This document shows, one piece after another, positions 1-57,664 of a DNA stretch of 64,000 nt. The translations under genes and the position numbers were made by a program. The notes under the pieces were generated by a model. That model had not been told where the DNA came from. It did no database searches and worked only from the letters and a program-made list of their open reading frames with translations. Source of the DNA: a virus (lineage: Duplodnaviria; Caudoviricetes); the IMG/VR virus record IMGVR_UViG_3300037400_002261, positions 1-64,000 of that record. The stretch is one strand, 5' to 3'. The first letter of the stretch is position 1; every line of letters begins with the position of its first letter.

Positions 1-745
1 TAATTATTATATATCCATCTTCATCTCTGCAGTACACATATGTATGATAGTCAACATAAAAAATTGGTTTAACACCATTCTGAATAGCGAAATCATATAA
101 TCCATCAGTATCTTCTGCAGTATATACATTATTAAACCAATCTTCAAATGTGCATTCTTCTAGTGATTTATCCAGTTCATCTGCTGTTTCAAACTTAAAA
201 CCGTCCTCATCAGTATCATACCATTCCTTGATAACCCATAATGGAAAATACATGTCAACAAGATTATTTCGATTACATTCCGCTTCACTAAAAAGTCCAG
301 TTGTATCAGCATAAATACAAACACTTACCATTTTCATATCTTTTTCAATTCCTTTTATTACTCTTTCATGCCATCCACAAAATCCATATTTATCTTCATG
401 TTTTTCAAAATCATAACCACACCAAAGCTCGTCACTTGAAATATGATTTTTATTTCTTATATAGTCATTAATCAACCATTTTAAATAAGGAAGATCTGAT
501 TTATCAAGTTCCATTAATCCACCATCATAATGTTTATCTATAAAAGAATATAAATCATATGAAATATCAATCCCAAGAAGTTCTTTTAGATAAACCATAT
601 TATCAAAATCAATCATACATCCATTATTTACAGCGCATTCAATCGCTTCTAATGGATTGCTTTCAGCATATCCATAATCATTTTCCATCAAATCATTATA
701 GCAATCAATCTTGTCGCAAACTTCTTTCCAATTAATATTCATCAT
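1..745 (-). CDS. Acidic hypothetical protein, runs off the window edge (partial)
   Basis: Open frame from ATG 745 (MMNINWKEVCD...) to position 1; AAAGGAG RBS. Confidence 0.75.
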   Translation of the reverse strand, partial: MMNINWKEVCDKIDCYNDLMENDYGYAESNPLEAIECAVNNGCMIDFDNMVYLKELLGIDISYDLYSFIDKHYDGGLMELDKSDLPYLKWLINDYIRNKNHISSDELWCGYDFEKHEDKYGFCGWHERVIKGIEKDMKMVSVCIYADTTGLFSEAECNRNNLVDMYFPLWVIKEWYDTDEDGFKFETADELDKSLEECTFEDWFNNVYTAEDTDGLYDFAIQNGVKPIFYVDYHTYVYCRDEDGYIII

Positions 746-759
746 AATTTTATCTCCTT

Positions 760-1125
760 TCAATATTTAATAAACTGTTCAATAAGGAAGTAATCTGCTC
801 CCTCAATATATTTTTGGCTAATTACATTATGAATAATTTCATTTTTACTAATACCAAAATCAACTCGTTGTTCAAGATCGCAATCGCTATTGAAGAAATA
901 ATATGTTACAATATATCTTCCTTCAGGTAATTCTTTTTCATTCTGTAATTCATCAACATATCCACTCATATCATCATATAATGCTGATTTAGTGCATAAA
1001 TGAAAACCAACTTCATTATCAACATCAACATATCCGATACCATCTTCTTTTTCATCATCTTCAGGATAATCAAAGAAATAATAATCATTATTCTTAATGC
1101 CTTTAACAATCATCCTTTCTGTCAT
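760..1125 (-). CDS. Hypothetical protein
   Basis: ORF track; RBS; packed with neighbours. Confidence 0.75.
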   Translation of the reverse strand: MTERMIVKGIKNNDYYFFDYPEDDEKEDGIGYVDVDNEVGFHLCTKSALYDDMSGYVDELQNEKELPEGRYIVTYYFFNSDCDLEQRVDFGISKNEIIHNVISQKYIEGADYFLIEQFIKY

Positions 1126-1142
1126 ATTATCACACCCCTTTC

Positions 1143-1580
1143 TTATAATTCATAATTAGTATCTTCATTTGCTTTAGCTATCAAATCTGCATAATGATAC
1201 TTTTTTGCATGTTCTTTAATAAAATTTTCGAGTATAGGTTCTGCAATACGTTCAAAATCTTCAAGTTCCATATCTAAAACGCTGGACGGAAACTCACTAT
1301 AATATGGAAATATATCATATGGATATCCATTTTGCGTTTTATTATAACCAGTATCTACACCACCAACATATAATTCATATCCAATACCATAGTGACTGTA
1401 TTCACCCCAGGCTCTAAAATCAAAAACAAGATCTCCAACTCGACAGCAACCGAAAACTCCAGCCGTATTAACATCTCCATCATCAAATCCATATGATTTA
1501 GTATCCCATTCAGCAGCCTTTCTTATTTCTTCAGGATAATTTTTCCAATCTTCTTTTGTGATTTCCCATACAAATTTCAT
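1143..1580 (-). CDS. Hypothetical protein
   Basis: ORF track; AAGGAG RBS. Confidence 0.8.
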   Translation of the reverse strand: MKFVWEITKEDWKNYPEEIRKAAEWDTKSYGFDDGDVNTAGVFGCCRVGDLVFDFRAWGEYSHYGIGYELYVGGVDTGYNKTQNGYPYDIFPYYSEFPSSVLDMELEDFERIAEPILENFIKEHAKKYHYADLIAKANEDTNYEL

Positions 1581-1704
1581 TTTTTATCTCCTTTTAATAA
1601 TATCTTGAATTATATTATTTACTGTTTCACCATTTATAATTCTCATCACAATTTCTTCAACTTCTTTAAATGTAAAATTATCAACAATCTCTTCAGCCAC
1701 CTTT

Positions 1705-1923
1705 TCACTCATCTTTTATTTCCTTATAATTATCTTCTATATGTCTCCAAATGAAACGCATTGCTCCATCATATGTATTTGATCTATATAGCTGCTCAGT
1801 TTTCTTTTTGCCATCCTCGTGCCATGTTTTAATTACTCTATATGGGTGATCAACATACATGAATCGAATCACTCTGATTTCTCCGTTACAAACAATTTTC
1901 GCCATTTGAATCTGTTTTGCCAT
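1705..1923 (-). CDS. Hypothetical protein
   Basis: Start moved to MAKQIQ after AAAGGAG. Confidence 0.7.
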   Translation of the reverse strand: MAKQIQMAKIVCNGEIRVIRFMYVDHPYRVIKTWHEDGKKKTEQLYRSNTYDGAMRFIWRHIEDNYKEIKDE

Positions 1924-1992
1924 TTTTAGAACTCCTTTCACATTTTAAAATAATTGAAATATTCAATAATCATACAATTTAATCATCTCCTT

Positions 1993-2316
1993 TCAAATCA
2001 ATCCATGATCTTCCATAAATTCTCTTGCCCATTCTGAATCAAGAAAATCTTCTGGCTGATATCCCATTTCAACCATTTCAATCATAGCGTCCAACTCATT
2101 CCAATCATTCTTGCTAAAATATTCTAAAGCAGCAGTTGTCTCTTCTATTACATCAATATCCTTTACTGTTTGAAATACAGCCATATTATATCTATCATTT
2201 ACTGCAATACAAATAAACTCAGAATTGTCTTTAAAAAAATCTGTTCCATCATCAGAATAAATTCTCATATTATCAGGCAAATCAGCAATCATTTCTTTCA
2301 ATTTTTTAATCGTCAT
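1993..2316 (-). CDS. Hypothetical protein
   Basis: ORF track; GAGGA RBS. Confidence 0.75.
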   Translation of the reverse strand: MTIKKLKEMIADLPDNMRIYSDDGTDFFKDNSEFICIAVNDRYNMAVFQTVKDIDVIEETTAALEYFSKNDWNELDAMIEMVEMGYQPEDFLDSEWAREFMEDHGLI

Positions 2317-2363
2317 ATTATACTTTTCCTCTCTTAATCAAATCATGTACAATATAAACTCTA

Positions 2364-2540
2364 TTAACATTTGTAATTTACAAGTTCAGGCATCTCATCC
2401 AATGCCACTTTATATGCGTCTTGCCAATTAATTGTGTTTTTCTCTTCAAAAAGAATTCTTCTCAAGCACATCTCGGCAGATTTGTCTTTAAATTTTAATA
2501 CTTCTTTAGAAAACATTGTTTTAATTTGTTTATCTGTCAT
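2364..2540 (-). CDS. Small hypothetical protein (58 aa, MTDKQIKT...)
   Basis: Hand translated; AAAGGA RBS; in frame with the upstream TAG-terminated gene. Confidence 0.6.
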   Translation of the reverse strand: MTDKQIKTMFSKEVLKFKDKSAEMCLRRILFEEKNTINWQDAYKVALDEMPELVNYKC

Positions 2541-2555
2541 AGTCCAATTTCCTTT

Positions 2556-2750
2556 CTATTTAACAACAGCCCATGTTTGACCACTATGATCCATATACAA
2601 ACATCTACCACTCTTCGTCTCACATATCTCAGTATTCTCATCTTTATGATTCAAATCCAGAGTATATTTAAGTTTTTCCATTGCTTCATATGGTGTTTTT
2701 GCAAAGAAACTCCAAGTTGCTCCAGTGTCAAGATTAAATACATTAATCAT
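2556..2750 (-). CDS. Hypothetical protein ending in TAG
   Basis: ORF track; AAAGGAG RBS. Confidence 0.7.
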   Translation of the reverse strand: MINVFNLDTGATWSFFAKTPYEAMEKLKYTLDLNHKDENTEICETKSGRCLYMDHSGQTWAVVK

Positions 2751-2776
2751 ATTTTTTCTCCTTTCAAATCGTTGTT

Positions 2777-3013
2777 TTATCTATGCCATACTACAATATA
2801 ATCATCTGCTTCCATCCTATTGTTATAATCATCTTCAGAATACCAGATGGCAGCTTCTATCTCATCCGCATCATTTTCTTTCGCAAGTTTCATTGCTTCT
2901 TCAAAACTATTTATATATAAATCACCATCTACATGATTTCCGTTTTTCCACACAGCAAGATTATAGCGTCCACCAGCATCTTCAATGTTCTCCAGTCTTT
3001 TAATAGGACTCAT
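2777..3013 (-). CDS. Hypothetical protein
   Basis: ORF track; GGAGATGA RBS. Confidence 0.75.
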   Translation of the reverse strand: MSPIKRLENIEDAGGRYNLAVWKNGNHVDGDLYINSFEEAMKLAKENDADEIEAAIWYSEDDYNNRMEADDYIVVWHR

Positions 3014-3045
3014 TTTTTATCATCTCCATTCAAATAACCGGTTTA

Positions 3046-3225
3046 TTAAAGTTTAATAATCGGCATTCCTTTTCTTCTCGCTTCTTCAACCTGCCCCGTG
3101 GTTGCTTCTTTGATTGAACACCATGGATATTTTGAATATTCCTTTTCAACCGCTTCATGCGTTCCAACTGCCAGATTTGTACAATAAACGTTTTCGGAAT
3201 ACTGGAATGAAACAATATATGTCAC
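3046..3225 (-). CDS. Hypothetical protein
   Basis: GTG start after GGGAGATGA. Confidence 0.7.
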   Translation of the reverse strand: MTYIVSFQYSENVYCTNLAVGTHEAVEKEYSKYPWCSIKEATTGQVEEARRKGMPIIKL

Positions 3226-3260
3226 GCTATCATCTCCCTTCATCAAACGTGTCTTTTATT

Positions 3261-3455
3261 TTATTTAATATACCTTTTAACAAATCTCTTATATGACTTC
3301 ATTGCGTCTTCTTTTATTGAATAAGGATTACTTTCATGTGTCTGATGCCATTCACCACCCCAATTCTCATAAACTCTGGCATGGTAGCAGTTTCTCTCCC
3401 ATTCACAAGTTACTTCTATGGCTGCATTTCTTTCCACTGCTATTGTTACTGTCAT
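3261..3455 (-). CDS. Hypothetical protein
   Basis: Start MTVTIA after AAAGGA; flanked by TTCATCAAACGTGT direct repeats. Confidence 0.7.
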   Translation of the reverse strand: MTVTIAVERNAAIEVTCEWERNCYHARVYENWGGEWHQTHESNPYSIKEDAMKSYKRFVKRYIK

Positions 3456-3487
3456 GCAATTACTTCCTTTCATCAAACGTGTTTTTA

Positions 3488-3655
3488 TCAAAAGTCTCTC
3501 AGCTGATACTTATCTTTCACAATGTATTCTTCAATGTTGATATCAACAATTGACTTGACTCTTGCTTTTTTTAATGCTTGTTCAACCGTTTCCGCTTCTA
3601 CCTTTTTAACCTTGTATGTATTGCCGACAACATAATCAATAATGTATGTTTTCAT
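3488..3655 (-). CDS. Hypothetical protein
   Basis: Start MKTYII after AAAGGAG. Confidence 0.7.
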   Translation of the reverse strand: MKTYIIDYVVGNTYKVKKVEAETVEQALKKARVKSIVDINIEEYIVKDKYQLRDF

Positions 3656-3685
3656 TATGCCATCTCCTTTCAAAGGCGACTTATA

Positions 3686-4060
3686 TCACATCAAATCTTT
3701 CGCAACACTAACATGAAATGTTTCTTCAAACCAGTGCCAAATCTCTTCTCTGTGATCTCCTGGAATAAATCTTCCCCAGAAATCTTCGATGCATTCCGTT
3801 TCAGGATTCATCGGAACATCTCCAAAATCTGCCCAGAGTTCTTTTACAAGATCAAGATATACATACGGAGTGCTTCTCTCAATTTTCTTTCCGTTATCAG
3901 TAATATCAATCCAGAAAGAAATAATCTCGAATTTATACTCATCTCTCCATATCTTTATTGCATCCATTGCCTTTTCATAAGACATTGCAGCATCGTATGT
4001 GTGCTGAATATCCCACTCTTTACCACGTTTAATAATTGCCATCGGCCAATATAATTTCAT
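3686..4060 (-). CDS. Hypothetical phage protein
   Basis: ORF track; RBS. Confidence 0.8.
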   Translation of the reverse strand: MKLYWPMAIIKRGKEWDIQHTYDAAMSYEKAMDAIKIWRDEYKFEIISFWIDITDNGKKIERSTPYVYLDLVKELWADFGDVPMNPETECIEDFWGRFIPGDHREEIWHWFEETFHVSVAKDLM

Positions 4061-4081
4061 AACACCATCTCCTTTTAATAA

Positions 4082-4357
4082 TTAACGATTTCCATACAAC
4101 TGATTTTTAATTCTAACCTGTGACATGATTCCTTTATTTGGATTATCTTTATCCAACCAGTAATAGAATTTTCTATACCAACCATCTGCATTAAGCATTT
4201 CTACTTTTATGGAATTATCCATGAAATTCCGCTGCGGTCGTGTCATATTTGTTTCATAGTTTCCATAACCATCAGGATATATATAACGATCATATCCGCT
4301 TGAATAATGAACCTGTAACATATTCTGACCTTCCAACTGAAGAATCCATTCGATCAT
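4082..4357 (-). CDS. Hypothetical protein
   Basis: ORF track; RBS. Confidence 0.75.
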   Translation of the reverse strand: MIEWILQLEGQNMLQVHYSSGYDRYIYPDGYGNYETNMTRPQRNFMDNSIKVEMLNADGWYRKFYYWLDKDNPNKGIMSQVRIKNQLYGNR

Positions 4358-4372
4358 TAATTTTATCTCCTT

Positions 4373-4531
4373 TCATAAAATCTGGATTTCATTTAGTTCT
4401 GTTATACTGACAACACTATATCCCATACATGTTAACCATATAGATGCATGTAGTCTGTCTTCAAAATCTCCGATAATCTTTATTTTTACTCCATTACTAT
4501 CTATCACCAAACACTCAAACTTATGCCACAT
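4373..4531 (-). CDS. Small hypothetical protein (52 aa)
   Basis: Hand translated MWHKFECL...; AAAGGAGATGA RBS. Confidence 0.6.
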   Translation of the reverse strand: MWHKFECLVIDSNGVKIKIIGDFEDRLHASIWLTCMGYSVVSITELNEIQIL

Positions 4532-4558
4532 TTAATCATCTCCTTTCAAATTTTTATT

Positions 4559-4723
4559 TTATTCTTCATATGCATTAACACAGTTTTTATTAAATACATC
4601 AGCTTCTGTCTTACATTCTTTACTCAATTCACATCTATAATCGCATTTTTCTTTGCAATAAATGCAACATTTTGCACATTTGCTTTTTGAATCAATTGCA
4701 CCGTCCATAAAACATCTAATCAT
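4559..4723 (-). CDS. Small Cys-rich protein (54 aa)
   Basis: Hand translated MIRCFMDG...CAKCCIYCKEKCDYRC; RBS. Confidence 0.65.
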   Translation of the reverse strand: MIRCFMDGAIDSKSKCAKCCIYCKEKCDYRCELSKECKTEADVFNKNCVNAYEE

Positions 4724-4737
4724 TTAATCATCTCCTT

Positions 4738-5043
4738 TTAACCATACATTTCAAATTCTTTTGCCAACCAGCGACTTTCTTCTTCAAGTTCATCAATCCA
4801 CAAATCTAAATAACCATCTCTGGCATCCTTATTTGTCCAGTTAGCTTTCCCTAGACCAACCGAAGATATCTCAATATATCCGTCATCATCAATATCCCAT
4901 AAATTCTTACCATATTTCTCTTGCCATTCCTTATTATCATTAATTTCATTTTTGGTTGCTTTAAACACCCAAAGTACTAAAGCATTATCATAATCATAAC
5001 GGAATAATTTTTTTCCTCTTTTATAAACTTTTGAAATTTTCAT
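4738..5043 (-). CDS. Hypothetical protein
   Basis: ORF track; RBS. Confidence 0.75.
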   Translation of the reverse strand: MKISKVYKRGKKLFRYDYDNALVLWVFKATKNEINDNKEWQEKYGKNLWDIDDDGYIEISSVGLGKANWTNKDARDGYLDLWIDELEEESRWLAKEFEMYG

Positions 5044-5067
5044 TCAATCATCTCCTTATTTTTAACT

Positions 5068-5439
5068 TTATCTACCAAGTGCCTTTATAACTCCAGAACT
5101 CACCATTGCAAACTGTTTTCCATCATCACGCTGGGCAACAACATCATACTTATTACCTGGCTTAAACCCAACCAGATAATATTTTCTTCCTTTCACTTCA
5201 AATTCTTTCTTATAATCGTCTTCCTTGAATCCGTAGTACTGCATATAGCCAAGCATTTCCATGAATTTTTCTTTATCAACATCTACATCATCTCGTCTTC
5301 CATTTACCTTTATAGTAAACGTTGTATTGTCATAAGTGATATTACCAGCGGTCAGTGTGATATTATATTTCTTTGCAATATCCTCCATTGCTTTATTCAG
5401 ATCAGTTCTAAACTCTTTAAAATTCATGTAATTCTTCAT
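5068..5439 (-). CDS. Hypothetical phage protein
   Basis: Start MKNYMNF after GAGGAGG. Confidence 0.75.
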   Translation of the reverse strand: MKNYMNFKEFRTDLNKAMEDIAKKYNITLTAGNITYDNTTFTIKVNGRRDDVDVDKEKFMEMLGYMQYYGFKEDDYKKEFEVKGRKYYLVGFKPGNKYDVVAQRDDGKQFAMVSSGVIKALGR

Positions 5440-5440
5440 A

Positions 5441-5719
5441 TTATTCATCCTCCTCATCATCTTCGTTTTCTTCAAAATTCTCAAGAATATCTTCAAGTAA
5501 ATCATCTCCGTCTGTACCATATTCAGGCTGATTACAGATCTCAATTTCTTTTCTATTAATATTTACATTGAGATAGACTCCATAATCGATTCCACCAGCG
5601 TTCACTGACAATCTCCACTCATATTCAAAATCAGAAATCCCATCACTAAGTTCTCTCAGCACATTAGCAAGTGCCATCGGATTGTATCTGTCAATTTCTA
5701 CTGAATAAATTTCTTTCAT
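5441..5719 (-). CDS. Acidic hypothetical protein
   Basis: ORF track. Confidence 0.75.
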   Translation of the reverse strand: MKEIYSVEIDRYNPMALANVLRELSDGISDFEYEWRLSVNAGGIDYGVYLNVNINRKEIEICNQPEYGTDGDDLLEDILENFEENEDDEEDE

Positions 5720-5760
5720 ATTATATTCTCCATTCTTAATTTAATTTTTGTTTGAGATTT

Positions 5761-6030
5761 TCAGTTTACTTCATAGTCAGGAAGAAAACCAAGTTTGCTT
5801 TTAATACACTCGTCAATTAGTTTCCATGCTCTTTCGGTATCAACATCTCCATATTCCGTCACACATTCATCATATCCGTCCAGATTTTTATATTCTTCCC
5901 AGAAGAGACATTTTTCTGAATTGCGATCTTTTTCTTCGTCAACAATTTCTCCACGGAAAAATGCGAACTTAGGAACTGAAAAATCTCCATAATGATAATC
6001 TGTGTCAATCCAGTAATAATACTTTTCCAT
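5761..6030 (-). CDS. Hypothetical protein
   Basis: Start MEKYYY after AAAGGA. Confidence 0.7.
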   Translation of the reverse strand: MEKYYYWIDTDYHYGDFSVPKFAFFRGEIVDEEKDRNSEKCLFWEEYKNLDGYDECVTEYGDVDTERAWKLIDECIKSKLGFLPDYEVN

Positions 6031-6047
6031 TATATATTTCCTTTCAT

Positions 6048-6353
6048 TCACATTGCATACTTTTCCCAGTTTTCAGGGAAGCCTTTTCTCTGTGGAGTAA
6101 TTTCAGCTAATATAAATTCTGTGCAATCTCCATCATCCCACTGGACTTTTGCATACGTTTCTTCATGATAACATTCCTCTTCGTCAAGGTGAGAAATATC
6201 ATCATCTTCTGGGTCATCATCTACCATCATATCATTATAATAATCTTCCCACATCCAATGAAGATATGCAGTTGCTTTGCGATAATCAGTAAATTCAACA
6301 GCTTCTGTTTCAGGATCAAAATTATGAGTTTTGATTACGACATACTTTTCCAT
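6048..6353 (-). CDS. Acidic hypothetical protein
   Basis: Start after AAAGGAG. Confidence 0.7.
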   Translation of the reverse strand: MEKYVVIKTHNFDPETEAVEFTDYRKATAYLHWMWEDYYNDMMVDDDPEDDDISHLDEEECYHEETYAKVQWDDGDCTEFILAEITPQRKGFPENWEKYAM

Positions 6354-6442
6354 ATTCATATCTCCTTTTATATTATTTATTTTGCTCAAGTTTTCCATGA
6401 TAATAACCAACAATCCTCTCTCTTATTAAATCATCTCTTCAT

Positions 6443-6706
6443 TTACCATTCCTCCTCTTCATCTTCATATTCCCAACCGCAAGAACCACACCACTCATAA
6501 TCCTCATAAAGTGGATAACCAAACAATTCATCTGGAGATTCCCATTTCTGCCGATCTATATAATACTCACAGCAAACACAATCTTCCCCGCCACATCCTT
6601 CGCAGCGGTCTGCATCTTCTTGCTCAATTTCAGCAAGACGTTCAAGTGTTTTGCGTTCGTAACTGAGAAGATTGTTAAACATCATGTTACCTTGAAGTCC
6701 TTTCAT
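6443..6706 (-). CDS. Cys-rich acidic hypothetical protein
   Basis: CEGCGGEDCVCC and CGSC motifs. Confidence 0.7.
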   Translation of the reverse strand: MKGLQGNMMFNNLLSYERKTLERLAEIEQEDADRCEGCGGEDCVCCEYYIDRQKWESPDELFGYPLYEDYEWCGSCGWEYEDEEEEW

Positions 6707-6710
6707 TTAA

Positions 6711-7115
6711 TCACTCTCCTTTAATAAGCTCAAATACAGTTTTCCAATCAGGCTTAAGATCTGCAACGTCACAAATAATATTGATTATGTCATTCACAAT
6801 ACACTCTTTTTCATTTCGCTCTTCATATTCAATACACATCGAACGAAACCAGCCACCACCATAATAACCAAAAATAAGATTAATCGAACATCCTTTTGAG
6901 TCAAAGTCAAAATTTTCTTTACATCCACTCCAGTCGCTCCCTAATTCGCTTGGACTTTTTACAGTATCAAGTTCCTCTTCTGTAAGTTCTTCAATATCAC
7001 AGCTACCGCAGAAATCAAACTCTGGGAATCTCATTTCCCACCAGTTAATCATTTTCCAAATTTCTTCTACACATTCTTTAACTGTTCCGCAAATAAATCT
7101 TTCGTTCTTAATCAT
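6711..7115 (-). CDS. Hypothetical protein
   Basis: ORF track; AAGGAG RBS. Confidence 0.75.
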   Translation of the reverse strand: MIKNERFICGTVKECVEEIWKMINWWEMRFPEFDFCGSCDIEELTEEELDTVKSPSELGSDWSGCKENFDFDSKGCSINLIFGYYGGGWFRSMCIEYEERNEKECIVNDIINIICDVADLKPDWKTVFELIKGE

Positions 7116-7157
7116 ATCCCATTCTCCTTATATATTAACTATTAAATATGTTCCTAC

Positions 7158-7373
7158 TTAATTCCAGGTTGACATATACAATTCATACTCATCAACTTTT
7201 GGTTTATTGTAACTATTTTTATGAATGAATTTCGTACAGTAACCACCGTCAAATCTTTTTCCGTATGCATTACATCTGTTTTGGTAATAATGATAACAAC
7301 AGTGGCATCCCATATCATCATCCAATCTATACATACCATTTACCCATAACTTTTCTTTTTTAGGTTTTACCAT
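7158..7373 (-). CDS. Small Cys-containing hypothetical protein
   Basis: Start after AAGGGTGA. Confidence 0.6.
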   Translation of the reverse strand: MVKPKKEKLWVNGMYRLDDDMGCHCCYHYYQNRCNAYGKRFDGGYCTKFIHKNSYNKPKVDEYELYMSTWN

Positions 7374-7471
7374 ATAATCATCACCCTTTACATCCACTCA
7401 ACTTTACCAAGTTCTCTTTTTTCAATATTTAATTCATTTATAAAAACATTAAAATCATTGTTTTCATTACA

Positions 7472-7834
7472 TCACTCTCCCTTCTTTAATTTCTCTACAT
7501 ATTCTTCTCGCCATTGGCAATATTCTTCAAGTGATACATTTGGAAAACTTTCCTTTGCATCTTTTATAAACACTGGACAAGTTCTCCAGTTACTACAAAT
7601 CATTGTCGGCATATCATCTGATTCACTATCAGGTTTTGCTTCTTCTCCGTACTGACAATGTTCACATTCAGTAGGATAAAAGCGGATTTCATTACAACCA
7701 TCAATGTATTTCTGGCGGCGATACTCAGCATTTGCTTTATACCACTCTTGACGATTCCAATACAATTCACATTCATGATTGTAATCTTCTTGTTCATCAA
7801 GATAATAATTCGATACGCAATTTGGAATTCTCAT
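7472..7834 (-). CDS. Hypothetical protein (CxxC)
   Basis: ORF track; RBS. Confidence 0.75.
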   Translation of the reverse strand: MRIPNCVSNYYLDEQEDYNHECELYWNRQEWYKANAEYRRQKYIDGCNEIRFYPTECEHCQYGEEAKPDSESDDMPTMICSNWRTCPVFIKDAKESFPNVSLEEYCQWREEYVEKLKKGE

Positions 7835-7850
7835 ATTTAAGTCTCCTTTC

Positions 7851-8207
7851 TTAAACCGTAATGAGTTTAATTGGTTTCAACCATTCAACAAGCAACCACG
7901 CTCCTCCCTGAGATTCTGGTCTATCATACTTCTTCATTTCTCCCTTCGCTTCACACATCATCCAGACACGCTTTTCGCCAGATTTTAATTCATCTGCAAT
8001 ATGAGGAGCAACAGGCTCAAAGCAGCAATGATAACCGCCAATCTCATTTCCATTTTCATCCTTACCAAGAGATCTCGGAGCAAACCCATTAGTAGGATGA
8101 TATTCTGCTCTCATCCATTCACCAAACTTAAATGGTTTCTTTTTGTCGATGAACAGAGGATAAACATTACCATCTTTGAGAATCCTTACTTTCTTAAATA
8201 CTACCAT
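7851..8207 (-). CDS. Hypothetical phage protein
   Basis: GGAGGT RBS; YHCC..P.APH and RPESQGG.W segments. Confidence 0.75.
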   Translation of the reverse strand: MVVFKKVRILKDGNVYPLFIDKKKPFKFGEWMRAEYHPTNGFAPRSLGKDENGNEIGGYHCCFEPVAPHIADELKSGEKRVWMMCEAKGEMKKYDRPESQGGAWLLVEWLKPIKLITV

Positions 8208-8258
8208 GACCTTACCTCCATTTTTGTATCTTGTCAATATGTATTTTAATATTTTATA

Positions 8259-8972
8259 TTAATGTGCTTCAAAAATTACATGTTCTCCATTTTTCAGAAC
8301 CCAACATCCCTCTTTATGGAAATGACAATAACTGCAATTTCCACCACAGAAATATGCTCCAAACTCTGGAGCAGTTGTTGTTCCATCTGGAAACAGAACG
8401 TGACTTTCGGGAATATGATATGGATTTTTCATTTCCATACCAGGCCACCTTGAATAAATCGGATGAACATTTGAAACAAATTTTCCGTCATGGTTGTCAA
8501 GCCAATTATTACAACCATCATAGTTCTTGGTGAAGAACAGAAAATCACATCTTGGATTTCTCTTGCCAATCTCATTAATGTACTCAAAATCTTCCTCGGT
8601 TAAATCACCGCCGACATTAATTCTGAGTTCAGTAATGAATAATGCTTTTACCTGAAGTTCAACTTCATTCCAGTACCGCTCTGGGTCTGTCTTATGAATA
8701 GCAGAGTTGACAAGTCTCTGATGCAAACAACCATTGTTAATCACATCGTGCTGAACATCATAACAATGGAATTTGCATTCACTACAATTACAACAATCAA
8801 TGATCGGAAGTAACGAAACGGTGTAACAATTACGTCCCGTCTTATCATTTCCGTTCATGATAGATACATGGAGATTATGTACATTAGCAAGATACTTTTT
8901 CAGCGCTGTTCTTGCCTTTCTGACAAATCTCTTGATTGACAGGTCGCTCCATTTTACGTGTCTCTTTGCCAT
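8259..8972 (-). CDS. Phage gp88-like protein (radical-SAM-like Fe-S fold)
   Basis: GNDKTG..SLLP..CCNCSECKFHCY, RINVGGD, FTK and C-terminal CGGNCSYC motifs; AAAGGAGG RBS. Confidence 0.7.
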   Translation of the reverse strand: MAKRHVKWSDLSIKRFVRKARTALKKYLANVHNLHVSIMNGNDKTGRNCYTVSLLPIIDCCNCSECKFHCYDVQHDVINNGCLHQRLVNSAIHKTDPERYWNEVELQVKALFITELRINVGGDLTEEDFEYINEIGKRNPRCDFLFFTKNYDGCNNWLDNHDGKFVSNVHPIYSRWPGMEMKNPYHIPESHVLFPDGTTTAPEFGAYFCGGNCSYCHFHKEGCWVLKNGEHVIFEAH

Positions 8973-9023
8973 AGCAACCTCCTTTGAATCAAAAAAGGAA
9001 CTGCATTTCAACAGTTCCCTTAA

Positions 9024-15161: not shown

Positions 15162-16679
15162 TTAAGCAACTAAGATTTTTTCTTTTGCAAGTGCTTCTGC
15201 AAGAGCGTTGGTGAAACCAATAATTTTTTCATCTTCAACTCTCTTATTATAATCATATCTGCACTGTACTACTCTTCCATGACAATATTCCATTGCTATA
15301 TACGGTGCAGTCGGATCTTCAATGCGTCTAACAAAAAATATAAGTGTTTTGCCTTCCGCATATCTATCCACATAAGTCCCAAGACAATTATGAAGTGCTT
15401 TTCCCTCCCTTCTAAGTTCATCAACTGTCTCAGGAATTAATACCTGAAGTCCATCTGACCCAATAAAAAACTTACATAATTCCTTATTGTTGTGTAGTCC
15501 AATAGAAATGTTTTTAATTAAGTTGTTATGAAATATATCTTCGTTCTGCTTAATAATATCCAGATTTCTCATATATTCATTAGATACACGATTATCTGAT
15601 TTGCGAAAATCTTTTGGATATAGATTACTCTTATCGAGTTTATATCTTAATTTTATTAACATACTAACATAATGTATCCACTCGTTATGATTACATCCAG
15701 TCTTAATAAAATATTTAAGTGTTTTCTCAAGACTTAGACGATAGTTGATGATTTGGTTTATTACATCATCATTTACCTTAGACCGAAGACATAAATCAAT
15801 CAACTCCTGGTTAATATTGGGAATTATTTTGATTAATTGATATGCTTTTATAGTTTGATTTTCTCTTAATAATTTCAGTTGGTTTTTATTGATACCCAAC
15901 ATACCTTTTAAAGATGTTTTGTTGGAAATAGGATTGATACACATTTTTCTTGCGTAATAATTTTTTCCCCACATATCAAAATCATCTTTTGCCAGTTCTG
16001 TAAGACCTGCCTTACACAATTTTTCATATAAGTTTTTTCTATCTACAAGAACACTTATACTTGTGTGTGCATATAAACTTGAATGGGTAAAACTATTCAT
16101 AAACTCAAAATCTTTCAGACAATCGAGCTTTTTAAGTTCCTTTTTCCAAAGAGGTTTATATCCATCAGCAGGAAGACAACACCATTTACGGAAATTCCAC
16201 ATATAATATTCTGCAAAAAATCTACGACTTGAATATTTCCATTCTCCATCAATCATCTCAAATGTATGATATGATTCAGTTATTGGATTATAAACAAGCC
16301 TTGCACATTCTTCCACCTCTTCATGTTTACCCACTTTAAAACAAACGACATATCTAAGCATCAACGTTGTATTGTCGATTGCCTTTGGGATAGCAATCCA
16401 GTCGATTGTTTCAGGAAAAGATTTTACTCTCCATTCATGAATTACTTCCATTTCCTTTCCACAAACTGGACAATTAATTTTATCACGATGTTTTGTCTTT
16501 GGAAGATTGGTTTCATTTTTGCATCTTGTACAATAACCATGATGTTTTCCATCATTGTCTTTGCTAACAAGAATATAATGTGCAGTTTCCTTTCGTATCC
16601 ATTCCGTCTGGAACGAAGTTAACTTAGGGATATTAACCATATACTTTTTAATAAGTCTTTCTTTTTCAGATTTTCTCAT
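15162..16679 (-). CDS. PcfJ-like protein
   Basis: N-terminal CTRC...CPVC; C-terminal P....EL..EG..LHNCLG.Y...Y..G...IFFVR....P..PY...E...VQ motif. Confidence 0.8.
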   Translation of the reverse strand: MRKSEKERLIKKYMVNIPKLTSFQTEWIRKETAHYILVSKDNDGKHHGYCTRCKNETNLPKTKHRDKINCPVCGKEMEVIHEWRVKSFPETIDWIAIPKAIDNTTLMLRYVVCFKVGKHEEVEECARLVYNPITESYHTFEMIDGEWKYSSRRFFAEYYMWNFRKWCCLPADGYKPLWKKELKKLDCLKDFEFMNSFTHSSLYAHTSISVLVDRKNLYEKLCKAGLTELAKDDFDMWGKNYYARKMCINPISNKTSLKGMLGINKNQLKLLRENQTIKAYQLIKIIPNINQELIDLCLRSKVNDDVINQIINYRLSLEKTLKYFIKTGCNHNEWIHYVSMLIKLRYKLDKSNLYPKDFRKSDNRVSNEYMRNLDIIKQNEDIFHNNLIKNISIGLHNNKELCKFFIGSDGLQVLIPETVDELRREGKALHNCLGTYVDRYAEGKTLIFFVRRIEDPTAPYIAMEYCHGRVVQCRYDYNKRVEDEKIIGFTNALAEALAKEKILVA

Positions 16680-17839
16680 TTTTTTGCTCCTTTACTAGTA
16701 GCTTTGATTAATGTATTTTTCTTAGTTTCTATTGGTTTCTTAGGTTCTTCACTATTGAAGTAGTCTATTGCATACTTCAAAGCTGTGTCAGCAGTCATTA
16801 CAGCCACATTACCAACTCTCATACAATAACCTTCCCTTGCCTTATTAGCAAAATACTGGAAAGCACCAATATAAGATTTTTCAGGTCGCATTACATTATC
16901 AAGAAACTCCTGATCCGAAACACAAGCCTCAAGTATACCATCAATAACATATTCGGTATCTCTGTCACCTTTAAACATCTCCCGCTCTTTGTTCAGTTTC
17001 GCTTCGGCTTCTTCGTAGCTATGATGTTTATTGGTCGGCTGAAGTCTCTTAATTGTTGTAGTATCTTTCTTCGGAAATTTGATGATATTCCCCGTTTCCT
17101 TTGATGGCTCAATAATTTTCTCTTTAACGGTTAACTTGCTTATTTTTGTTGCAATATCATGTTCATCGGTATTTTTCTCAACAATTTTGTCGGTTGATTT
17201 TAGTGATTCAAGCTGTTTTAATTTTGCTTTACAACGAGTCAACCTCGTTTTATTTCCAGATGGTTTCATTTCCATCTTTAAAATTGCTGCTTTAAGCTGA
17301 TTAACAGTTGCTTTCTTTATCGGATAATTTCCGTCATTAACAGGGATAGATGTAAGAGCATGGATAATTTTTTCATCTTCTGTAGTCTCTTTTGTTGTTA
17401 TAGTATCTATATTTATAGGTTTCTTTGGTGCTTCAACAGGTTCTCTTGCAAAAATATTACCAAGAATATCTCTAAGAGTTTCTGTTTCGGAAGTGTTCAA
17501 TGTTACACTTTTAATACTATAGTTATCAGAAAATAATCGGATATCATATCCATACTTTGTTAACTGAACAACAATTTCATTTTTGCCTTGCTGAATTTTA
17601 CCAAACACCTTTATTTTCTTTTCAGAAAAGTCAATATCTGCAAGAATATTATATATCTCATTAGCTTCTTCTTGAGAGATAGAAATACCTTTCGTAAATC
17701 TTTCCTCTCCATTGTAATCATACCAACCACGGATATCGTACTTTTCTGGCTTATTATACCATGAAAGAATCCTAAGCTCCATTGTGTTGTTTTTACGATT
17801 TCCAATAACACCAAGTTTCTTTTTAATACTTACTGACAT
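16676..17839 (-). CDS. YdbC/PC4-like domain fused to a PcfK-like C-terminal domain
   Basis: N-term I.KKLGVI...ELR.LSW....KYDIRGW...KGIS; C-term D..F...V....KS...AFQY..NKA...A.DYFN; directly upstream of pcfJ. Confidence 0.65.
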   Translation of the reverse strand: MSVSIKKKLGVIGNRKNNTMELRILSWYNKPEKYDIRGWYDYNGEERFTKGISISQEEANEIYNILADIDFSEKKIKVFGKIQQGKNEIVVQLTKYGYDIRLFSDNYSIKSVTLNTSETETLRDILGNIFAREPVEAPKKPINIDTITTKETTEDEKIIHALTSIPVNDGNYPIKKATVNQLKAAILKMEMKPSGNKTRLTRCKAKLKQLESLKSTDKIVEKNTDEHDIATKISKLTVKEKIIEPSKETGNIIKFPKKDTTTIKRLQPTNKHHSYEEAEAKLNKEREMFKGDRDTEYVIDGILEACVSDQEFLDNVMRPEKSYIGAFQYFANKAREGYCMRVGNVAVMTADTALKYAIDYFNSEEPKKPIETKKNTLIKATSKGAKK

Positions 17840-27267: not shown

Positions 27268-28464
27268 ATGCAATACAAGACGCTTCCTATTTCAAGTATT
27301 AATATTAATACTAGAATTCGGAAATCAATAGGTGACATATCAGAACTTGCCGCCAACATAAAAGAAGTCGGACTTATATTTCCAATTGTTGTTAATGAAA
27401 GTAATAAATTGCTTGCTGGCGAACGAAGACTTGAAGCATGTCGTTCTCTTGGATGGAATGAAATAGCTTGCATTGTAAAAACAACATCTGATGCAGAACA
27501 AGATCTTTCAATAGAAGTGTCGGAAAATATCCACCGTAAAGATTTTACCAGAGAAGAAGTTGTTGATGTTGGAATGGAACTTGAACGAATCGAGAAGGTT
27601 AAAGCGGAAGAAAGACAAGCAACTTCTACTGGCGGGACAAATCCACAGCTTAGGGAAAATTTTCCCGAAGCTGAAAGAGGTAGAACTCGTGATATTGTAG
27701 CTAGAAAACTCGGTATGTGTGGAAAACAATATGAACGAGAAAAATTTATTGTTCAAAATAAAGAACTCCTTTCATCTGGAGATTATGATGATTGGAATAA
27801 TAGAATAAAATCAACAAATGCTGTTTATACTATTATTAAGTCATTATTACCTTCAAATAATAAAAGCATTCCTAATAAACCAAAAGAAGTAATCAAAGAA
27901 GTAGTAAAGGAAGTAGTTCCGAAAGATTATGAAAATATTAAGCAACAAATAAAATCTTTATCTTCAGTAAATGAAAATTTAAAGGTCGAAAATTCTCGTT
28001 TAAAATCTTCTCTTGCTGAAAAAGAAGAAGAGATTGAGTACCTTCTTAATGAAACTGATAACCAAGATATTGCTGATGAGAATGCATCTTCTGATATTGA
28101 ACAAAAATATGAAGAACTTCGTTCACTATATAATAAGGAAGTTTCTGATTATAAATCTCAAATCGACACGATGAAAATTGAGTTAGATACTCTTCGCTGT
28201 TCTTCATCTCAGGTTGTTTCTAATTATAAAGATGGTGATGAAATATTTAACTTTTGTAGTGAGTGTAATCAGTTCGTTAGTAAAATTGTTTCTCTTCAGT
28301 ATTCAGATGCTTTTCGCAAAATTTCCGCAGAACGTGCTCTCCCCTTAAACACTCTTGCTGATTCTTGCGGAAAGGTAATGGATGCACTTGAGGAATTAAT
28401 TAAACATATTAAAACTGATTCTGTTGTTGATGTTATTGATGTTGATGTTGTTGATATTAATTAA
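27268..28464 (+). CDS. ParB/Srx N-terminal domain protein with coiled-coil C-terminus
   Basis: ELAANI..VGLI.PIVV....LLAGERRL.A, EN..RKDF; start after AAAGGAG. Confidence 0.8.
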   Translation: MQYKTLPISSININTRIRKSIGDISELAANIKEVGLIFPIVVNESNKLLAGERRLEACRSLGWNEIACIVKTTSDAEQDLSIEVSENIHRKDFTREEVVDVGMELERIEKVKAEERQATSTGGTNPQLRENFPEAERGRTRDIVARKLGMCGKQYEREKFIVQNKELLSSGDYDDWNNRIKSTNAVYTIIKSLLPSNNKSIPNKPKEVIKEVVKEVVPKDYENIKQQIKSLSSVNENLKVENSRLKSSLAEKEEEIEYLLNETDNQDIADENASSDIEQKYEELRSLYNKEVSDYKSQIDTMKIELDTLRCSSSQVVSNYKDGDEIFNFCSECNQFVSKIVSLQYSDAFRKISAERALPLNTLADSCGKVMDALEELIKHIKTDSVVDVIDVDVVDIN

Positions 28465-56659: not shown

Positions 56660-57664
56660 ATGGCTCGTAGCCGAGGAGTTTACAACAGAATTTATAGTGA
56701 CGAAAAATGGTTATAGGTTAATCCTGAAAATAAAGCCATAATGGATGACTTCCTCACAGAGTTGCGACAATAGAAAAAAAGTCCAAATACTATTGAAGCA
56801 TATAGACATGATTTAAAATTAATATTTATAAAAATTCTTGAAGACTTTAATAATAAGTCAGTTTTAGAAATGACAAAGAAAGATTTTCGCCGTTTAAATA
56901 TTTGGTTTGATGATTCTGGAATGTCTCCAGCGAGATGTAATAGGCTTCACTCTTCTATCAATTCAATGTTAACATTTTGCGAAGAAGATGATGATTATGA
57001 TTATGAAGTTAATTATAGTAAGAAAGTGCGTGGAGTTCCTAACGAAAAAGTAAAAACAAATGATGATGATTTCTTCTTTACATTTGATGAATTTATTAAA
57101 ACAAGGAATATTCTTGTAGAACAAGGTAGATTGTAGGATGCTGTGTTATGGTCTTTAATGTATGATTCTGGTGCGAGACGTAATGAAGTATATCAAGTAA
57201 AGAAACAAGGTCTTCTTGATGGTAACAAAACAAATATTGTTAGAGGTAAACGTGGAAAACAATTTCCACTTATTTATTTAAATGATACGAAAGAACTTAT
57301 TCGCCAATATCTTGAATGGCGTGGTGATGATGGAATTGATTCATTATGGATTAAAGGACATGGAGAAACTGCTTCTGAGATTGATTGTTCTACATTATAT
57401 GATCGTATTGTAAGTATTAGTAAAATACTTTCTGAGGTTCGTGGTGAAGAAGTTAATATTTTTCCGCATAGTTGCCGCCATAGTAGATTGCAAGCATTAA
57501 AAAAGGGATGGGATGACCGTCTTAAGGATGATGGAGGGAAAAATAAAGTATTTGAATTAGATCAAATATAGGCATTTGCACATCATTCAGATTTAACAAC
57601 TACTTCTGGGTATCTTAAAGATGAAACTGAAGACAAAATAAATGAAATGTTTGGAATTTCATAA
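56660..57664 (+). CDS. Tyrosine recombinase/integrase, 334 aa, 4 TAG=Gln
   Basis: GARRNE (R), GKRGK (K), PHSCRH (HxxR), HHS..TT..Y (Tyr nucleophile). Confidence 0.88.

What the first reader, a model, noticed from the sequence alone, without database searches (positions are those of the whole stretch)
2764..4561. Cassette-like array: micro-genes separated by a 5-6-5 palindromic site
Seven of eight consecutive junctions carry T(C/A)AAA-N6-TTT(T/C)A: 2764, 3030, 3243, 3473 (N5), 3670, 4376 and 4546. A similar N7 site lies at 7450. Each sits at or overlapping the 3' end of one gene and just before the next RBS. The arms are conserved and the 6-nt spacer varies, which is the geometry of tyrosine-recombinase core sites. 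Gene 3261-3455 is flanked by an identical 14-bp TTCATCAAACGTGT. Inference: an integron-like gene acquisition or shuffling array in the phage early region, with the tyrosine recombinase at 56660 as one candidate enzyme. A repressor operator or RNA-processing signal are alternatives. Part of the TCAAA arm overlaps the GAAAGGAG RBS context, which inflates the apparent conservation.
Basis: partly seen in the sequence, partly recalled or inferred. Interest (0 to 1): 0.7.

Follow-up and report, generated by a model that had tools for sequence, protein, structure and literature searches.

The report
Shared linkers joining shuffled phage genes
A row of tiny genes in an uncultured ~107-kb gut/rumen-type phage is joined by a short repeated 'stop codon, spacer, ribosome-binding site' linker, and related phages have swapped single genes at these joints, most likely by ordinary recombination at short shared sequences and not by an integron-like enzyme.

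Summary
The genes lie on the minus strand. In the sense direction each site is [T(A/G)A]TAA-AA, a 5-7-nt C/G-containing spacer, TTTGA(T), then a long Shine-Dalgarno GA(A/G)(A/G)GGAG and ATG. The '5-6-5 palindrome' is never perfect (4/5). The literal pattern is not enriched window-wide (9 hits vs 6.0±2.7).

The ordered junction motif is real and specific to this lineage. It occurs at 4/11 junctions in the window array and 23/50 in close relatives, against about 0.2 and 0.7 after shuffling and 0-5% in control phages.

Relatives from IMG/VR show heavy single-gene mosaicism. 71% of homology-block ends lie within 10 nt of a junction (17% by chance). Identical linker classes (GACACG, TCGCC, CAACGA) join unrelated genes.

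Crossovers that can be resolved fall in the shared GGAGAT(G) ribosome-site core or in the linker. Junctions without the motif break too. The linker has no RNA fold, promoter or terminator. The recombinase at 56660 is a generic Xer-like enzyme 52 kb away.

Best reading: a minimal, promoter-less analogue of the T4-type PeSL cassettes. It serves as translational punctuation and as short homology for modular shuffling. This scan has noted similar stop-start joints in other phages.

The parts
2364..5043 (-). Core of the array: 11 co-oriented small genes (52-124 aa; 2364-2540, 2556-2750, 2777-3013, 3046-3225, 3261-3455, 3488-3655, 3686-4060, 4082-4357, 4373-4531, 4559-4723, 4738-5043). All are ORFans or of unknown function. 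It is part of a longer minus-strand run of small genes, 760-7400.
   Evidence: ORF list and coding/SD-scored gene calls. No informative Pfam or PHROG hit. No paralogy among the proteins. Homologues of single genes are scattered in different orders in relatives.
2751..2779 (-). Linker, CAACGA class. Sense: TAA-AA CAACGA TTTGA-AAGGAG N7 ATG. The TAA is the stop of 2777-3013.
   Evidence: The same linker class follows the homologous gene in L103 and occurs in L004 and L130.
3014..3048 (-). Linker, CCGGTTA class (7-nt spacer). Sense: TAA-TAAA CCGGTTA TTTGA-ATGGAG N10 ATG.
   Evidence: The ACGGTTA class occurs in L001 and L130. The homology block with L103 starts exactly at the GGAG (3027).
3226..3263 (-). 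Linker, GACACG class. Sense: TAA-AATAAAA GACACG TTTGA-TGAAGGGAG N9 GTG. It contains one copy of the 14-bp repeat (3239-3252).
   Evidence: The GACACG class is found at about 10 junctions between unrelated genes in 6 relatives.
3456..3490 (-). Linker, (G)ACACG class (5-nt spacer). Sense: TGA-TAAAA ACACG TTTGA-TGAAAGGAAG N7 ATG. It holds the second copy of the 14-bp repeat (3469-3482). Together with 3226-3263 it brackets gene 3261-3455.
   Evidence: Three independent relatives lose homology at 3465, inside this SD.
3656..3688 (-). Linker, GTCGCC class. Sense: TGA-TATAA GTCGCC TTTGA-AAGGAG N8 ATG.
   Evidence: The class follows the homologous gene (family F0) in L002 and L003 whatever gene comes next, and precedes family F6 in L003 and L103.
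4061..4084 (-). Junction without the motif (TAA-TTATTAAAAGGAG N9 ATG). It is the one conserved adjacency (F1 to F0 in 4 of 4 genomes).
4358..4391 (-). Compact junction. The stop TGA (4373-4375) is embedded in TGAAAGGAG.
4532..4561 (-). Linker with an all-A/T spacer. Sense: TAA-AATAAAAA TTTGA-AAGGAGATGATTAA ATG.
7450..7466 (-). Linker-like unit (sense TGAAAACAATGATTTTA) in a 74-nt gap, not followed by an SD.
1924..1995 (-). TTTGAAAGGAGATGATTAA joint followed by only an 11-codon ORF that ends in the TGA of the next SD. Probably a deletion scar.

Best explanation
The array is a hyperplastic block of unrelated small accessory genes. Its junctions use a lineage-specific, roughly 26-35-nt standard intercistronic linker. 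In the sense direction it reads: stop codon(s) T(A/G)A-TAA plus AA, a 5-7-nt C/G-containing spacer, TTTGA(T), a long Shine-Dalgarno GA(A/G)(A/G)GGAG, 7-10 nt, then the start codon.

Shown: the anatomy, its non-random order, its restriction to this array and to related phages, its lack of RNA structure, and the single-gene mosaicism among relatives, with homology blocks that end at the SD core or at the linker.

Inferred: (1) On the mRNA the linker is translational punctuation. It gives firm termination, often with tandem stops, followed by an unstructured A/U-rich leader and a very strong SD for re-initiation within one polycistronic transcript. (2) The same 6-15-nt strings (GGAGAT(G), ATAAAA-spacer-TTT) recur at many junctions and in co-infecting relatives. 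General homologous or microhomology-mediated recombination, or template switching, between them therefore inserts, deletes and swaps 'gene + linker' cassettes without breaking genes. The same process copies the linkers to new contexts. This is the logic of T4-type PeSL modular shuffling, reduced to a promoter-less, hairpin-less linker. No dedicated recombinase is needed.
For: Anatomy and logo: (A at -12 94%, T at -11 80%, AAA, spacer with C 54% at -4 and no T at -1, TTT, G 63%).

Non-random order: 37/123 junctions vs 4.5±2.0 shuffled. Refined motif: 4/11 in the window array and 23/50 in close relatives vs 0.19 and 0.74 shuffled; controls 3/70, 2/37 and 0/12.

Region-specific within the genome: 6/18 junctions at 1-7500 vs 1/14 and 0/6 elsewhere in the unrecoded arms.

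Unstructured RNA: mean z +0.20 over 35 sites. No Rfam hit. No promoter excess, and the gaps are too short for one.

Mosaicism: gene order is scrambled among 9 loci. HSP ends are 43% inside junctions and 71% within 10 nt, vs 11% and 17% at random. Single-gene islands include window 4081-3663 at 93% identity in L001 between unrelated neighbours.

Linker classes are shared between non-homologous genes and travel with either the upstream gene (F0, F2, F22) or the downstream gene (F6, F25).

Resolved crossovers fall in GGAGAT and AGGAGATG of the SD, and in ATAAAAGACACGTTT. HSP right ends peak at SD +2..+8, left ends at -25..-20, -10..-8 and -3..0.

The array proteins are not paralogues, so linker similarity is not left over from tandem duplication.

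Precedent: PeSL cassettes, where crossovers were mapped between the SD and the -10 box and mini-circles were detected (PMC2839356, read).
Against: Nothing here shows that the linker causes recombination and is not simply carried along with it. Junctions without the motif also break synteny (36/51 pairs vs 23/24 with the motif; Fisher p=0.015, but pseudo-replicated; per gene family 13/17 vs 12/12, not significant).

The translational role is inferred from position and lack of structure only. It does not explain why a C/G-containing spacer between an A-run and a T-run is kept in a 33% G+C genome, or why tandem double linkers exist (L004 4900, L130 1901, L001 6997).

No single-strand-annealing recombinase was recognised in the window; only an SbcD/Mre11-like exonuclease, a ParB-like nuclease and an HNH endonuclease were.

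The relatives are metagenomic contigs, the gene calls are my own simple caller, and BLAST HSP ends are fuzzy by a few bases.
Confidence: 0.6

Rival explanations
1. The A-run/spacer/T-run is a cis-regulatory site recognised by a protein. One option is recognition on the mRNA: a translational repressor of early genes in the manner of T4 RegA, or an endoribonuclease site that cuts the polycistron just 5' of each strong SD so that the SD stabilises the downstream fragment. The other is recognition on DNA: a dimeric repressor bound at many intergenic sites, like the stoperators of cluster A mycobacteriophages. Shuffling would then be a side effect.
For: The position is fixed relative to both the stop and the SD (T-run to ATG 18-23 nt). 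The sites are restricted to one co-transcribed block and to one lineage. The spacer is C/G-rich in an AT-rich genome. There is partial dyad symmetry, ATAAAA-N6-TTTGAT, and in the two tandem double linkers the second unit's left arm is ATCAAA, with no stop codon, the exact complement of TTTGAT. The unstructured RNA would suit a single-strand-binding protein or RNase. Precedent for unexplained start-associated motifs: SAS/ESAS of cluster K mycobacteriophages (PMC3203893).
Against: No binding protein was identified. Half-sites made of A/T only would give poor specificity (0.67 matches per kb even in coding sequence). Only about 40-50% of eligible junctions carry the motif, and orthologous genes can have it in one phage and lack it in another (F6, F23, F24, F25), which is unlike the gene-faithful ESAS. 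Orthologous linkers are not visibly more conserved than the flanking genes (comparison of F0-to-F2 and F2 flanks). About two thirds of sites fall in four near-identical spacer classes, so much of the 'conservation' is copying.
Confidence: 0.2
2. Integron- or shufflon-like site-specific system. The sites are core sites (two arms and a 6-nt overlap) for a phage tyrosine recombinase such as the one at 56660-57664. The enzyme excises and inserts single-gene circles.
For: Direct repeats of the same linker bracket single genes (3261-3455 in the window; F14 in L002). The spacers fall into discrete classes, as would be needed if overlap regions must match. A tyrosine recombinase is encoded (Pfam Phage_integrase 32.5 bits plus an N-terminal SAM-like domain). 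The exchanges in the F14 contexts are compatible with a crossover anywhere inside ATAAAAGACACGTTT.
Against: The arms are 5-6 nt, imperfect (4/5 to 5/6), and largely accounted for by stop codons and the SD. Known tyrosine-recombinase arms are 9-13 bp (established knowledge). Two cleanly resolved indels cross over in the SD core, 5-10 nt outside the proposed spacer. Junctions with no such site break as well. There is no attC-like hairpin. The recombinase is 52 kb away in the TAG-recoded late module and scores far below the XerC/XerD cut-offs (65.8 vs 335 bits). The NCBIfam scan returned no bacterial integron-integrase model. Its only integron-labelled hit, the XerA-type NF040815, scored 64.5 bits against a 220-bit cut-off. 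Its homologue is 93% identical in one relative but only 33% and 26% in two others, and it was not found in an 88%-complete relative that carries linker-like sites. Its setting resembles the Xer-like genes of distantly related ~100-kb Enterocloster phages.
Confidence: 0.04
3. Nothing specific. The pattern is what any AT-rich phage gives when a TAA stop is followed a few bases later by a U-rich stretch and an SD.
For: The literal 5-6-5 pattern is not enriched window-wide (9 vs 6.0±2.7). One arm contains the stop codon and the other overlaps the SD. Genome-wide, the SD context is T(G/A)AAAGGAG.
Against: Composition-preserving shuffles of the same junctions give about 8- to 30-fold fewer sites. 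AT-rich controls with the same stop-plus-SD architecture have 0-5% (random AT-rich viral loci 2/37; Staphylococcus phage K plus Enterocloster phage PMBT24 0/12, where junctions are plain A-rich). Other junctions of the same genome lack the motif. Identical 6-mers such as GACACG recur at about 10 junctions.
Confidence: 0.06

Closest known systems
PeSL (promoter-early stem-loop) regulatory cassettes of T4-type phages (Arbiol et al. 2010, PMC2839356; Comeau et al. 2014, PMC4122927)
   Same: Conserved short intergenic elements ending in an SD sit between ORFans in hyperplastic regions. Insertions, deletions and replacements between relatives map to them. Crossovers have been mapped near the SD. 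The authors compared the organisation to integrons, but no dedicated recombinase is involved.
   Different: PeSLs are about 70-100 bp and contain a strong sigma70-type promoter and a terminator stem-loop. Here the linker is 26-35 nt, with no promoter, no hairpin and no sign of separate transcription units. The host lineage differs (likely Clostridia-type, strong SD). Mini-circles have not been looked for.
Start-associated sequences (SAS) and extended SAS of cluster K mycobacteriophages (Pope et al. 2011, PMC3203893)
   Same: A repeated motif lies immediately upstream of the start codons of a subset of genes and includes the RBS. The extended form has an imperfect inverted repeat with a variable spacer. 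Its function is unknown.
   Different: ESAS repeats are 17 bp and stay with particular gene families across genomes. Here the arms are at most 6 nt, one arm is the preceding stop codon, and the linkers move between unrelated genes.
Integron attC sites with the IntI integrase
   Same: An array of co-oriented promoter-less single-gene cassettes, each followed by a repeat element, with gene-by-gene gain and loss.
   Different: attC sites are 57-141 bp imperfect palindromes that fold as single strands. An adjacent intI, attI and Pc are needed. None of these is present here.
   Same: Many short repeats (19 bp, 7-bp spacer) delimit DNA segments that are rearranged.
   Different: Shufflon sites are in inverted orientation and invert segments of one gene's 3' end. 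Here all the sites are direct repeats between complete genes, and no inversions are seen.
Earlier notes of this scan on other phages: shared stop-start joints between small accessory genes (e1-5660760, e1-5783555)
   Same: A 15-22-nt joint ends one small gene, binds the ribosome and starts the next, and relatives gain, lose and swap genes at it.
   Different: Different sequences and different phage lineages. Here the stop and start are separated by a distinct A-run/spacer/T-run body. I did not examine those loci.

Membership tests
Integron (attC cassette array) | attC: 57-141-bp imperfect palindrome that folds into a hairpin with R''/L''-L'/R' boxes | tested here: not met
   The linkers are 26-35 nt and the quasi-symmetric core is 16-18 nt. 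RNA-parameter folds of 35 sites with 50 nt of upstream flank give a mean z of +0.20, meaning no structure. DNA parameters were not run.
Integron (attC cassette array) | Adjacent intI integron integrase with attI and Pc | tested here: not met
   The only tyrosine recombinase found is 52 kb away on the other arm. NCBIfam best hits are XerC at 65.8 bits (cut-off 335) and NF040815 (XerA-type 'tyrosine recombinase/integron integrase') at 64.5 bits (cut-off 220). No bacterial integron-integrase model was returned.
Tyrosine-recombinase core site (lox/FRT/dif type) | Two inverted 9-13-bp binding arms flanking a 6-8-bp overlap region | tested here: not met
   The logo shows at most 6 informative positions per side. 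The consensus ATAAAA / TTTGAT is complementary at 5 of 6 positions. The left arm is the stop codon(s) and the right arm abuts or overlaps the SD.
Tyrosine-recombinase core site (lox/FRT/dif type) | Exchange confined to the overlap (spacer) region | tested here: not met
   Two resolved indels cross over in GGAGAT and AGGAGATG of the SD, outside the spacer. Other events cannot be resolved within ATAAAAGACACGTTT.
PeSL cassettes (T4-type phages) | Sigma70-like early promoter within the element | tested here: not met
   The gaps are 14-35 nt. Promoter-like sites number 46 vs 48.8±6.1 in shuffles over 1-9000.
PeSL cassettes (T4-type phages) | Stem-loop terminator or attenuator within the element | tested here: not met
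   No stable hairpin at the linkers. None of the terminator-like hits in 1-9000 lies at an array junction.
PeSL cassettes (T4-type phages) | Lies between ORFans of a hyperplastic region, ends in an SD, and marks the indel or replacement breakpoints between relatives | tested here: met
SAS/ESAS (cluster K mycobacteriophages) | Motif stays associated with the same gene family across genomes | tested here: not met
   Linker present or absent, or of a different class, for the same family in different phages (F6, F14, F22, F23, F24, F25).
Stoperator-type repressor sites | Specific binding by the phage immunity repressor | not testable with these tools

The most novel reading that the evidence does not exclude
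The A-run/spacer/T-run unit is a dedicated recognition element. It would serve either a phage-encoded recombination function (for example the Xer-like recombinase) that moves single-gene cassettes between co-infecting phages, making a phage-borne minimal integron analogue, or a trans-acting factor that controls the whole accessory array. The discrete spacer classes would then act as compatibility groups.
Probability: 0.05. Interest if true: 0.85.

Novelty: new variant of a known kind. Interest (0 to 1): 0.4.

Why it matters
Phage accessory ('ORFan') gene arrays are where anti-defence and host-takeover genes turn over fastest, and how they are reshuffled without breaking genes is only partly understood. 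This locus suggests that the PeSL principle, conserved regulatory punctuation doubling as recombination joints, also operates in a very different lineage of phages that use strong Shine-Dalgarno sites. Here it is stripped to about 30 nt containing only a stop, a spacer and a ribosome-binding site. The resolvable crossovers lie in as little as 6-9 nt of shared ribosome-site sequence. Together with similar joints noted elsewhere in this scan, it points to a general and cheap mechanism for gene-by-gene exchange. It also gives a practical rule for delimiting cassettes in metagenomic phage genomes. It does not reveal a new enzyme system.

Tried and rejected
- Megablast of window 1-9000 against GenBank phages: no match.
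- Exact-pattern scan of IMG/VR with AAAGACACGTTTNATNA: over 119 hits, mostly chance. Only 9 had an SD context, of which about 7 were relatives. It cost a scan for little gain.
- Single-protein search with the GP88-like gene: nothing. The alignment-based search worked.
- An 8-6-8 consensus (TAATAAAA-N5-7-TTTGATGA) scanned over the whole genome: only the two GACACG sites and two unrelated plus-strand sites reach 15/16. The rest is background (62 sites at 13 or more), so the longer palindrome is not a genome-wide element.
- Hairpin or terminator idea (spacer as the 3' half of a stem): only one true case, in L103; otherwise no structure.
- Promoter ideas (a T7- or SP6-like resemblance of TAATAAAAGACACG...GGGAGA, a -10-only promoter): these rest on one spacer class only, could not be tested, and were dropped.
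- Tandem-duplication origin: no paralogy among the array proteins (best E 0.018).
- Staphylococcus phage K as an AT-rich control gave only 4 eligible junctions. Enterocloster phage PMBT24 added 8. These cultured-phage controls are small.
- Comparison with the closest relative by recombinase (G002): only patchy DNA similarity in the early arm, so no recent indels could be mapped there.
- PHROG and Pfam annotation of the larger genes found no single-strand-annealing recombinase.
Full report
CONTEXT. The window is the first 64 kb of a single 107,285-bp virus record with 33% G+C. Genes run on the minus strand from about 24.7 kb down to about 760, and on the plus strand from 25.9 kb onward. The plus-strand late module is TAG-recoded, according to earlier notes of this scan. 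I relied on that only to translate the recombinase. The nearest cultured relatives are very distant: ~100-kb Enterocloster bolteae phages and human-gut 'Bacteriophage sp.' records. The finding lies at the distal end of the minus-strand arm, in a run of about 25 genes of 42-145 aa. These have strong Shine-Dalgarno (SD) sites and no informative Pfam or PHROG hit.

WHAT THE SITES ARE. In the sense direction the 'T(C/A)AAA-N6-TTT(T/C)A' sites read TAAAA-N6-TTTGA, followed at once by AAGGAG or, 3 nt later, by GAAGGGAG, then 7-10 nt and the start codon. The TAA is the stop codon of the preceding gene at 2777, 3046 and 4559. At 3261 it lies 2 nt after the stop, and at 3488 and 3686 directly after a TGA stop. 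The GA of TTTGA is the start of the extended SD GAAAGGAG in half of the sites.

Exact matches are at 2764, 3243, 4376 and 4546 (N6), 3473 (N5) and 7450 (N7). 3030 and 3670 are near-misses. None is a perfect palindrome (4/5). 4376 is out of register, with both arms inside coding sequence and the real stop being the TGA of TGAAAGGAG. The literal pattern is not enriched in the window (9 hits vs 6.03±2.74). The 14-bp repeat at 3239 and 3469 is exact and unexpected by chance.

THE MOTIF IS NEVERTHELESS REAL. A protein search with gene 3686-4060 fetched 53 IMG/VR loci. Five hold full-length homologues, and a DNA-pattern scan added four more relatives. In these phages the junctions of the small-gene arrays carry the same, longer element: (T)[A/G]A-TAAAA, then 5-7 nt (C 54% at -4, never T at -1), then TTT-G(63%)-A-(T/A), then the SD.

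Over the window plus 8 non-redundant relatives, 37 of 123 junctions match AAA-N5-7-TTT[GAT]A. That compares with 4.5±2.0 (max 12) when each junction is shuffled, and with 15 vs 0.67 matches per kb in junctions vs coding sequence. Dropping the RBS-overlapping GA still gives 50 vs 10.2±2.9.

With at least 2 G/C required in the spacer, the figures are as follows:
- window array: 4/11 (0.19 expected)
- close relatives: 23/50 (0.74 expected)
- AT-rich relatives found through the GP88-like gene: 11/49 (1.0 expected)
- distant loci: 3/70
- random AT-rich viral loci: 2/37
- Staphylococcus phage K plus Enterocloster phage PMBT24: 0/12, where junctions are plain A-rich

Inside this genome the motif is confined to the distal array: 6/18 eligible junctions, against 1/14 and 0/6 in the other unrecoded parts. 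So it is not a generic by-product of 'TAA plus SD' in AT-rich DNA.

WHAT IT IS NOT. It is not a structured RNA. The folds of 35 sites are, if anything, less stable than shuffles (mean z +0.20). Rfam finds nothing in 1-9000. It is not a promoter or terminator cassette: promoter-like sites are at the shuffle level and none of the terminator-like hits lies at an array junction. It is not a remnant of tandem gene duplication, since the array proteins share no similarity.

COMPARATIVE EVIDENCE FOR CASSETTE SHUFFLING. Clustering the proteins of the nine loci shows the same families in quite different orders and neighbourhoods. All-against-all blastn gives homology blocks that are typically one gene long. 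Of 192 block ends, 43% lie inside a stop-to-start junction and 71% within 10 nt of one, against 11% and 17% for random positions.

Examples in window coordinates:
- 4081-3663: gene 3686-4060 alone, 93% identical in L001 between unrelated neighbours.
- 3676-3465: gene 3488-3655, in L106 and L003.
- 3027-2749: gene 2777-3013, in L103.

Right ends of blocks pile up at SD +2..+8. Left ends pile up at the stop/A-run (-25..-20), at the T-run (-10..-8) or at the SD (-3..0). The practical unit is therefore 'SD, gene, linker, SD'.

Linkers fall into spacer classes: GACACG (about 10 copies), [G/C]TCGCC, CAACGA, ACGGTTA, ACAGC, ATCAAG and others. These are shared by non-homologous genes. A class can stay with the upstream gene whatever follows: F0, F22, and F2 with four different downstream partners. 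It can also stay with the downstream gene (F6, F25). Gene 3261-3455 in the window and family F14 in L002 are each bracketed by two GACACG linkers.

WHERE THE CROSSOVERS ARE. Two events can be resolved.
1. Family F1 (window 4082-4357) is absent in L001. The L001 junction equals the junction upstream of F1 in L002 up to ...GAAGGGAGAT. From there on it follows the junction upstream of F0 in L004 and the window, with one substitution (TGTGTT for GGTGTT). The exchange therefore lies in the shared GGAGAT.
2. L003 has two extra genes between the homologues of 3686-4060 and 3488-3655, one of them a homologue of window gene 760-1125. The window junction is the left part of the first L003 junction (GTCGCCTTTGA) joined to the right part of the third (AAGGAGATG-CATA-ATG). 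The exchange lies in A(A/G)GGAGATG.

In the F14 and F25 contexts the shared segment is the linker ATAAAAGACACGTTT itself. Junctions without the motif also lose synteny (36 of 51 pairwise comparisons, against 23 of 24 with the motif). The motif is therefore not required for shuffling. At most it adds homology.

THE RECOMBINASE. Read with TAG=Gln, 56660-57664 is a 334-aa tyrosine recombinase with Phage_integrase and SAM-like N-terminal domains. By NCBIfam it is a generic Xer-like protein far below every cut-off, and no bacterial integron-integrase model was returned. It lies 52 kb away among late genes. A 93% homologue exists in one relative. Only 33% and 26% matches exist in two others, and none was found in an 88%-complete relative that carries linker-like sites. 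Distant Enterocloster phages also carry a XerD-like gene. Nothing links it to the array.

MECHANISM. My best reading (0.6) has two parts. First, the linker is standardised translational punctuation in a polycistronic accessory-gene block. It gives firm termination (often tandem stops), then an unstructured A/U-rich leader and an 8-9-nt SD helix that tolerates G·U pairs (GAAAGGAG, GAAGGGAG, GAGAGGAG). Second, its many copies, together with the shared SD core, are the short homologies at which general recombination or template switching swaps 'gene + linker' cassettes between co-infecting relatives.

The shown steps are the anatomy, the statistics, the mosaicism and the crossover positions. The inferred steps are the translational role and the causal role in recombination.

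What this reading does not explain is the C/G-rich spacer and the tandem double linkers. These keep a protein-binding or RNA-processing role alive (0.2). The integron or tyrosine-recombinase reading is unlikely (0.04). 'Pure chance' survives only for the literal 5-6-5 palindrome (0.06).

COMPARISON AND NOVELTY. Functionally this is closest to the PeSL cassettes of T4-type phages, which mediate modular shuffling of ORFans. There the crossovers were mapped between the SD and the -10 box and the authors compared the system to integrons (PMC2839356). The locus fails the two structural criteria of PeSLs, promoter and stem-loop, so it works like one but is not a member. It also recalls the SAS/ESAS motifs of cluster K mycobacteriophages (PMC3203893), but it does not stay with particular genes. 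This scan has already reported analogous stop-start joints in other uncultured phages (e1-5660760 and e1-5783555). The principle is therefore recurrent and this is a new sequence variant in a new lineage. I rate it a new variant of a known kind, of moderate interest.

Noticed in passing
window 2364-2750 (-): Gene 2556-2750 ends in TAG (2556-2558). The 15-nt gap puts it in frame with the next gene, 2364-2540. Under the phage's late TAG=Gln code the two would be read as one fusion protein. In relatives the two families (F23, F24) are separate and F23 ends in TAA.
   Followed up: partly
window 1924-1995 (-): A full TTTGAAAGGAGATGATTAA joint is followed only by an 11-codon ORF that ends in the TGA of the next SD. 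It looks like the scar of a deleted cassette.
   Followed up: no
window 3686-4060 (-): The C-terminal ~55 residues of this 124-aa protein occur as stand-alone small proteins in more than 45 IMG/VR contigs of about 50-200 kb (PHROG 24588, function unknown). This widespread accessory domain anchors the comparative set.
   Followed up: no
window 8208-8258 and 8973-9023 (-): A TTGACA box about 25-30 nt upstream of the start of gene 7851-8207 is conserved in the window and four relatives. A terminator-like hairpin plus T-run precedes gene 8259-8972 in three genomes. The small-gene array may be its own transcription unit.
   Followed up: no
L103 9896-9925: A true hairpin terminator (GGCGA-GTAAAT-TCGCC followed by TTTAATTT, fold z -3.1). 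Its 3' half looks like a TCGCC-class linker. This is a possible hint to the origin of that class.
   Followed up: no
L003 / L004 (G002, both ends of a 202-kb contig): The relative with the 93%-identical recombinase has two diverged copies of the F1-F0 gene pair (F0 copies 93% and 56% identical to the window's) at opposite contig ends, which would be adjacent if the record is circular. Its early arm otherwise shares only patchy DNA similarity with the window.
   Followed up: partly
window 15162-17839 (-), 27268-28464 (+), 37146-38348 (+): PcfJ-like and PcfK/PC4-like proteins, a ParB-like nuclease and an SbcD/Mre11-like exonuclease. A PcfJ-like and a PhoH-like protein are also annotated in the leftward early/middle arm of Staphylococcus phage K.
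   Followed up: no
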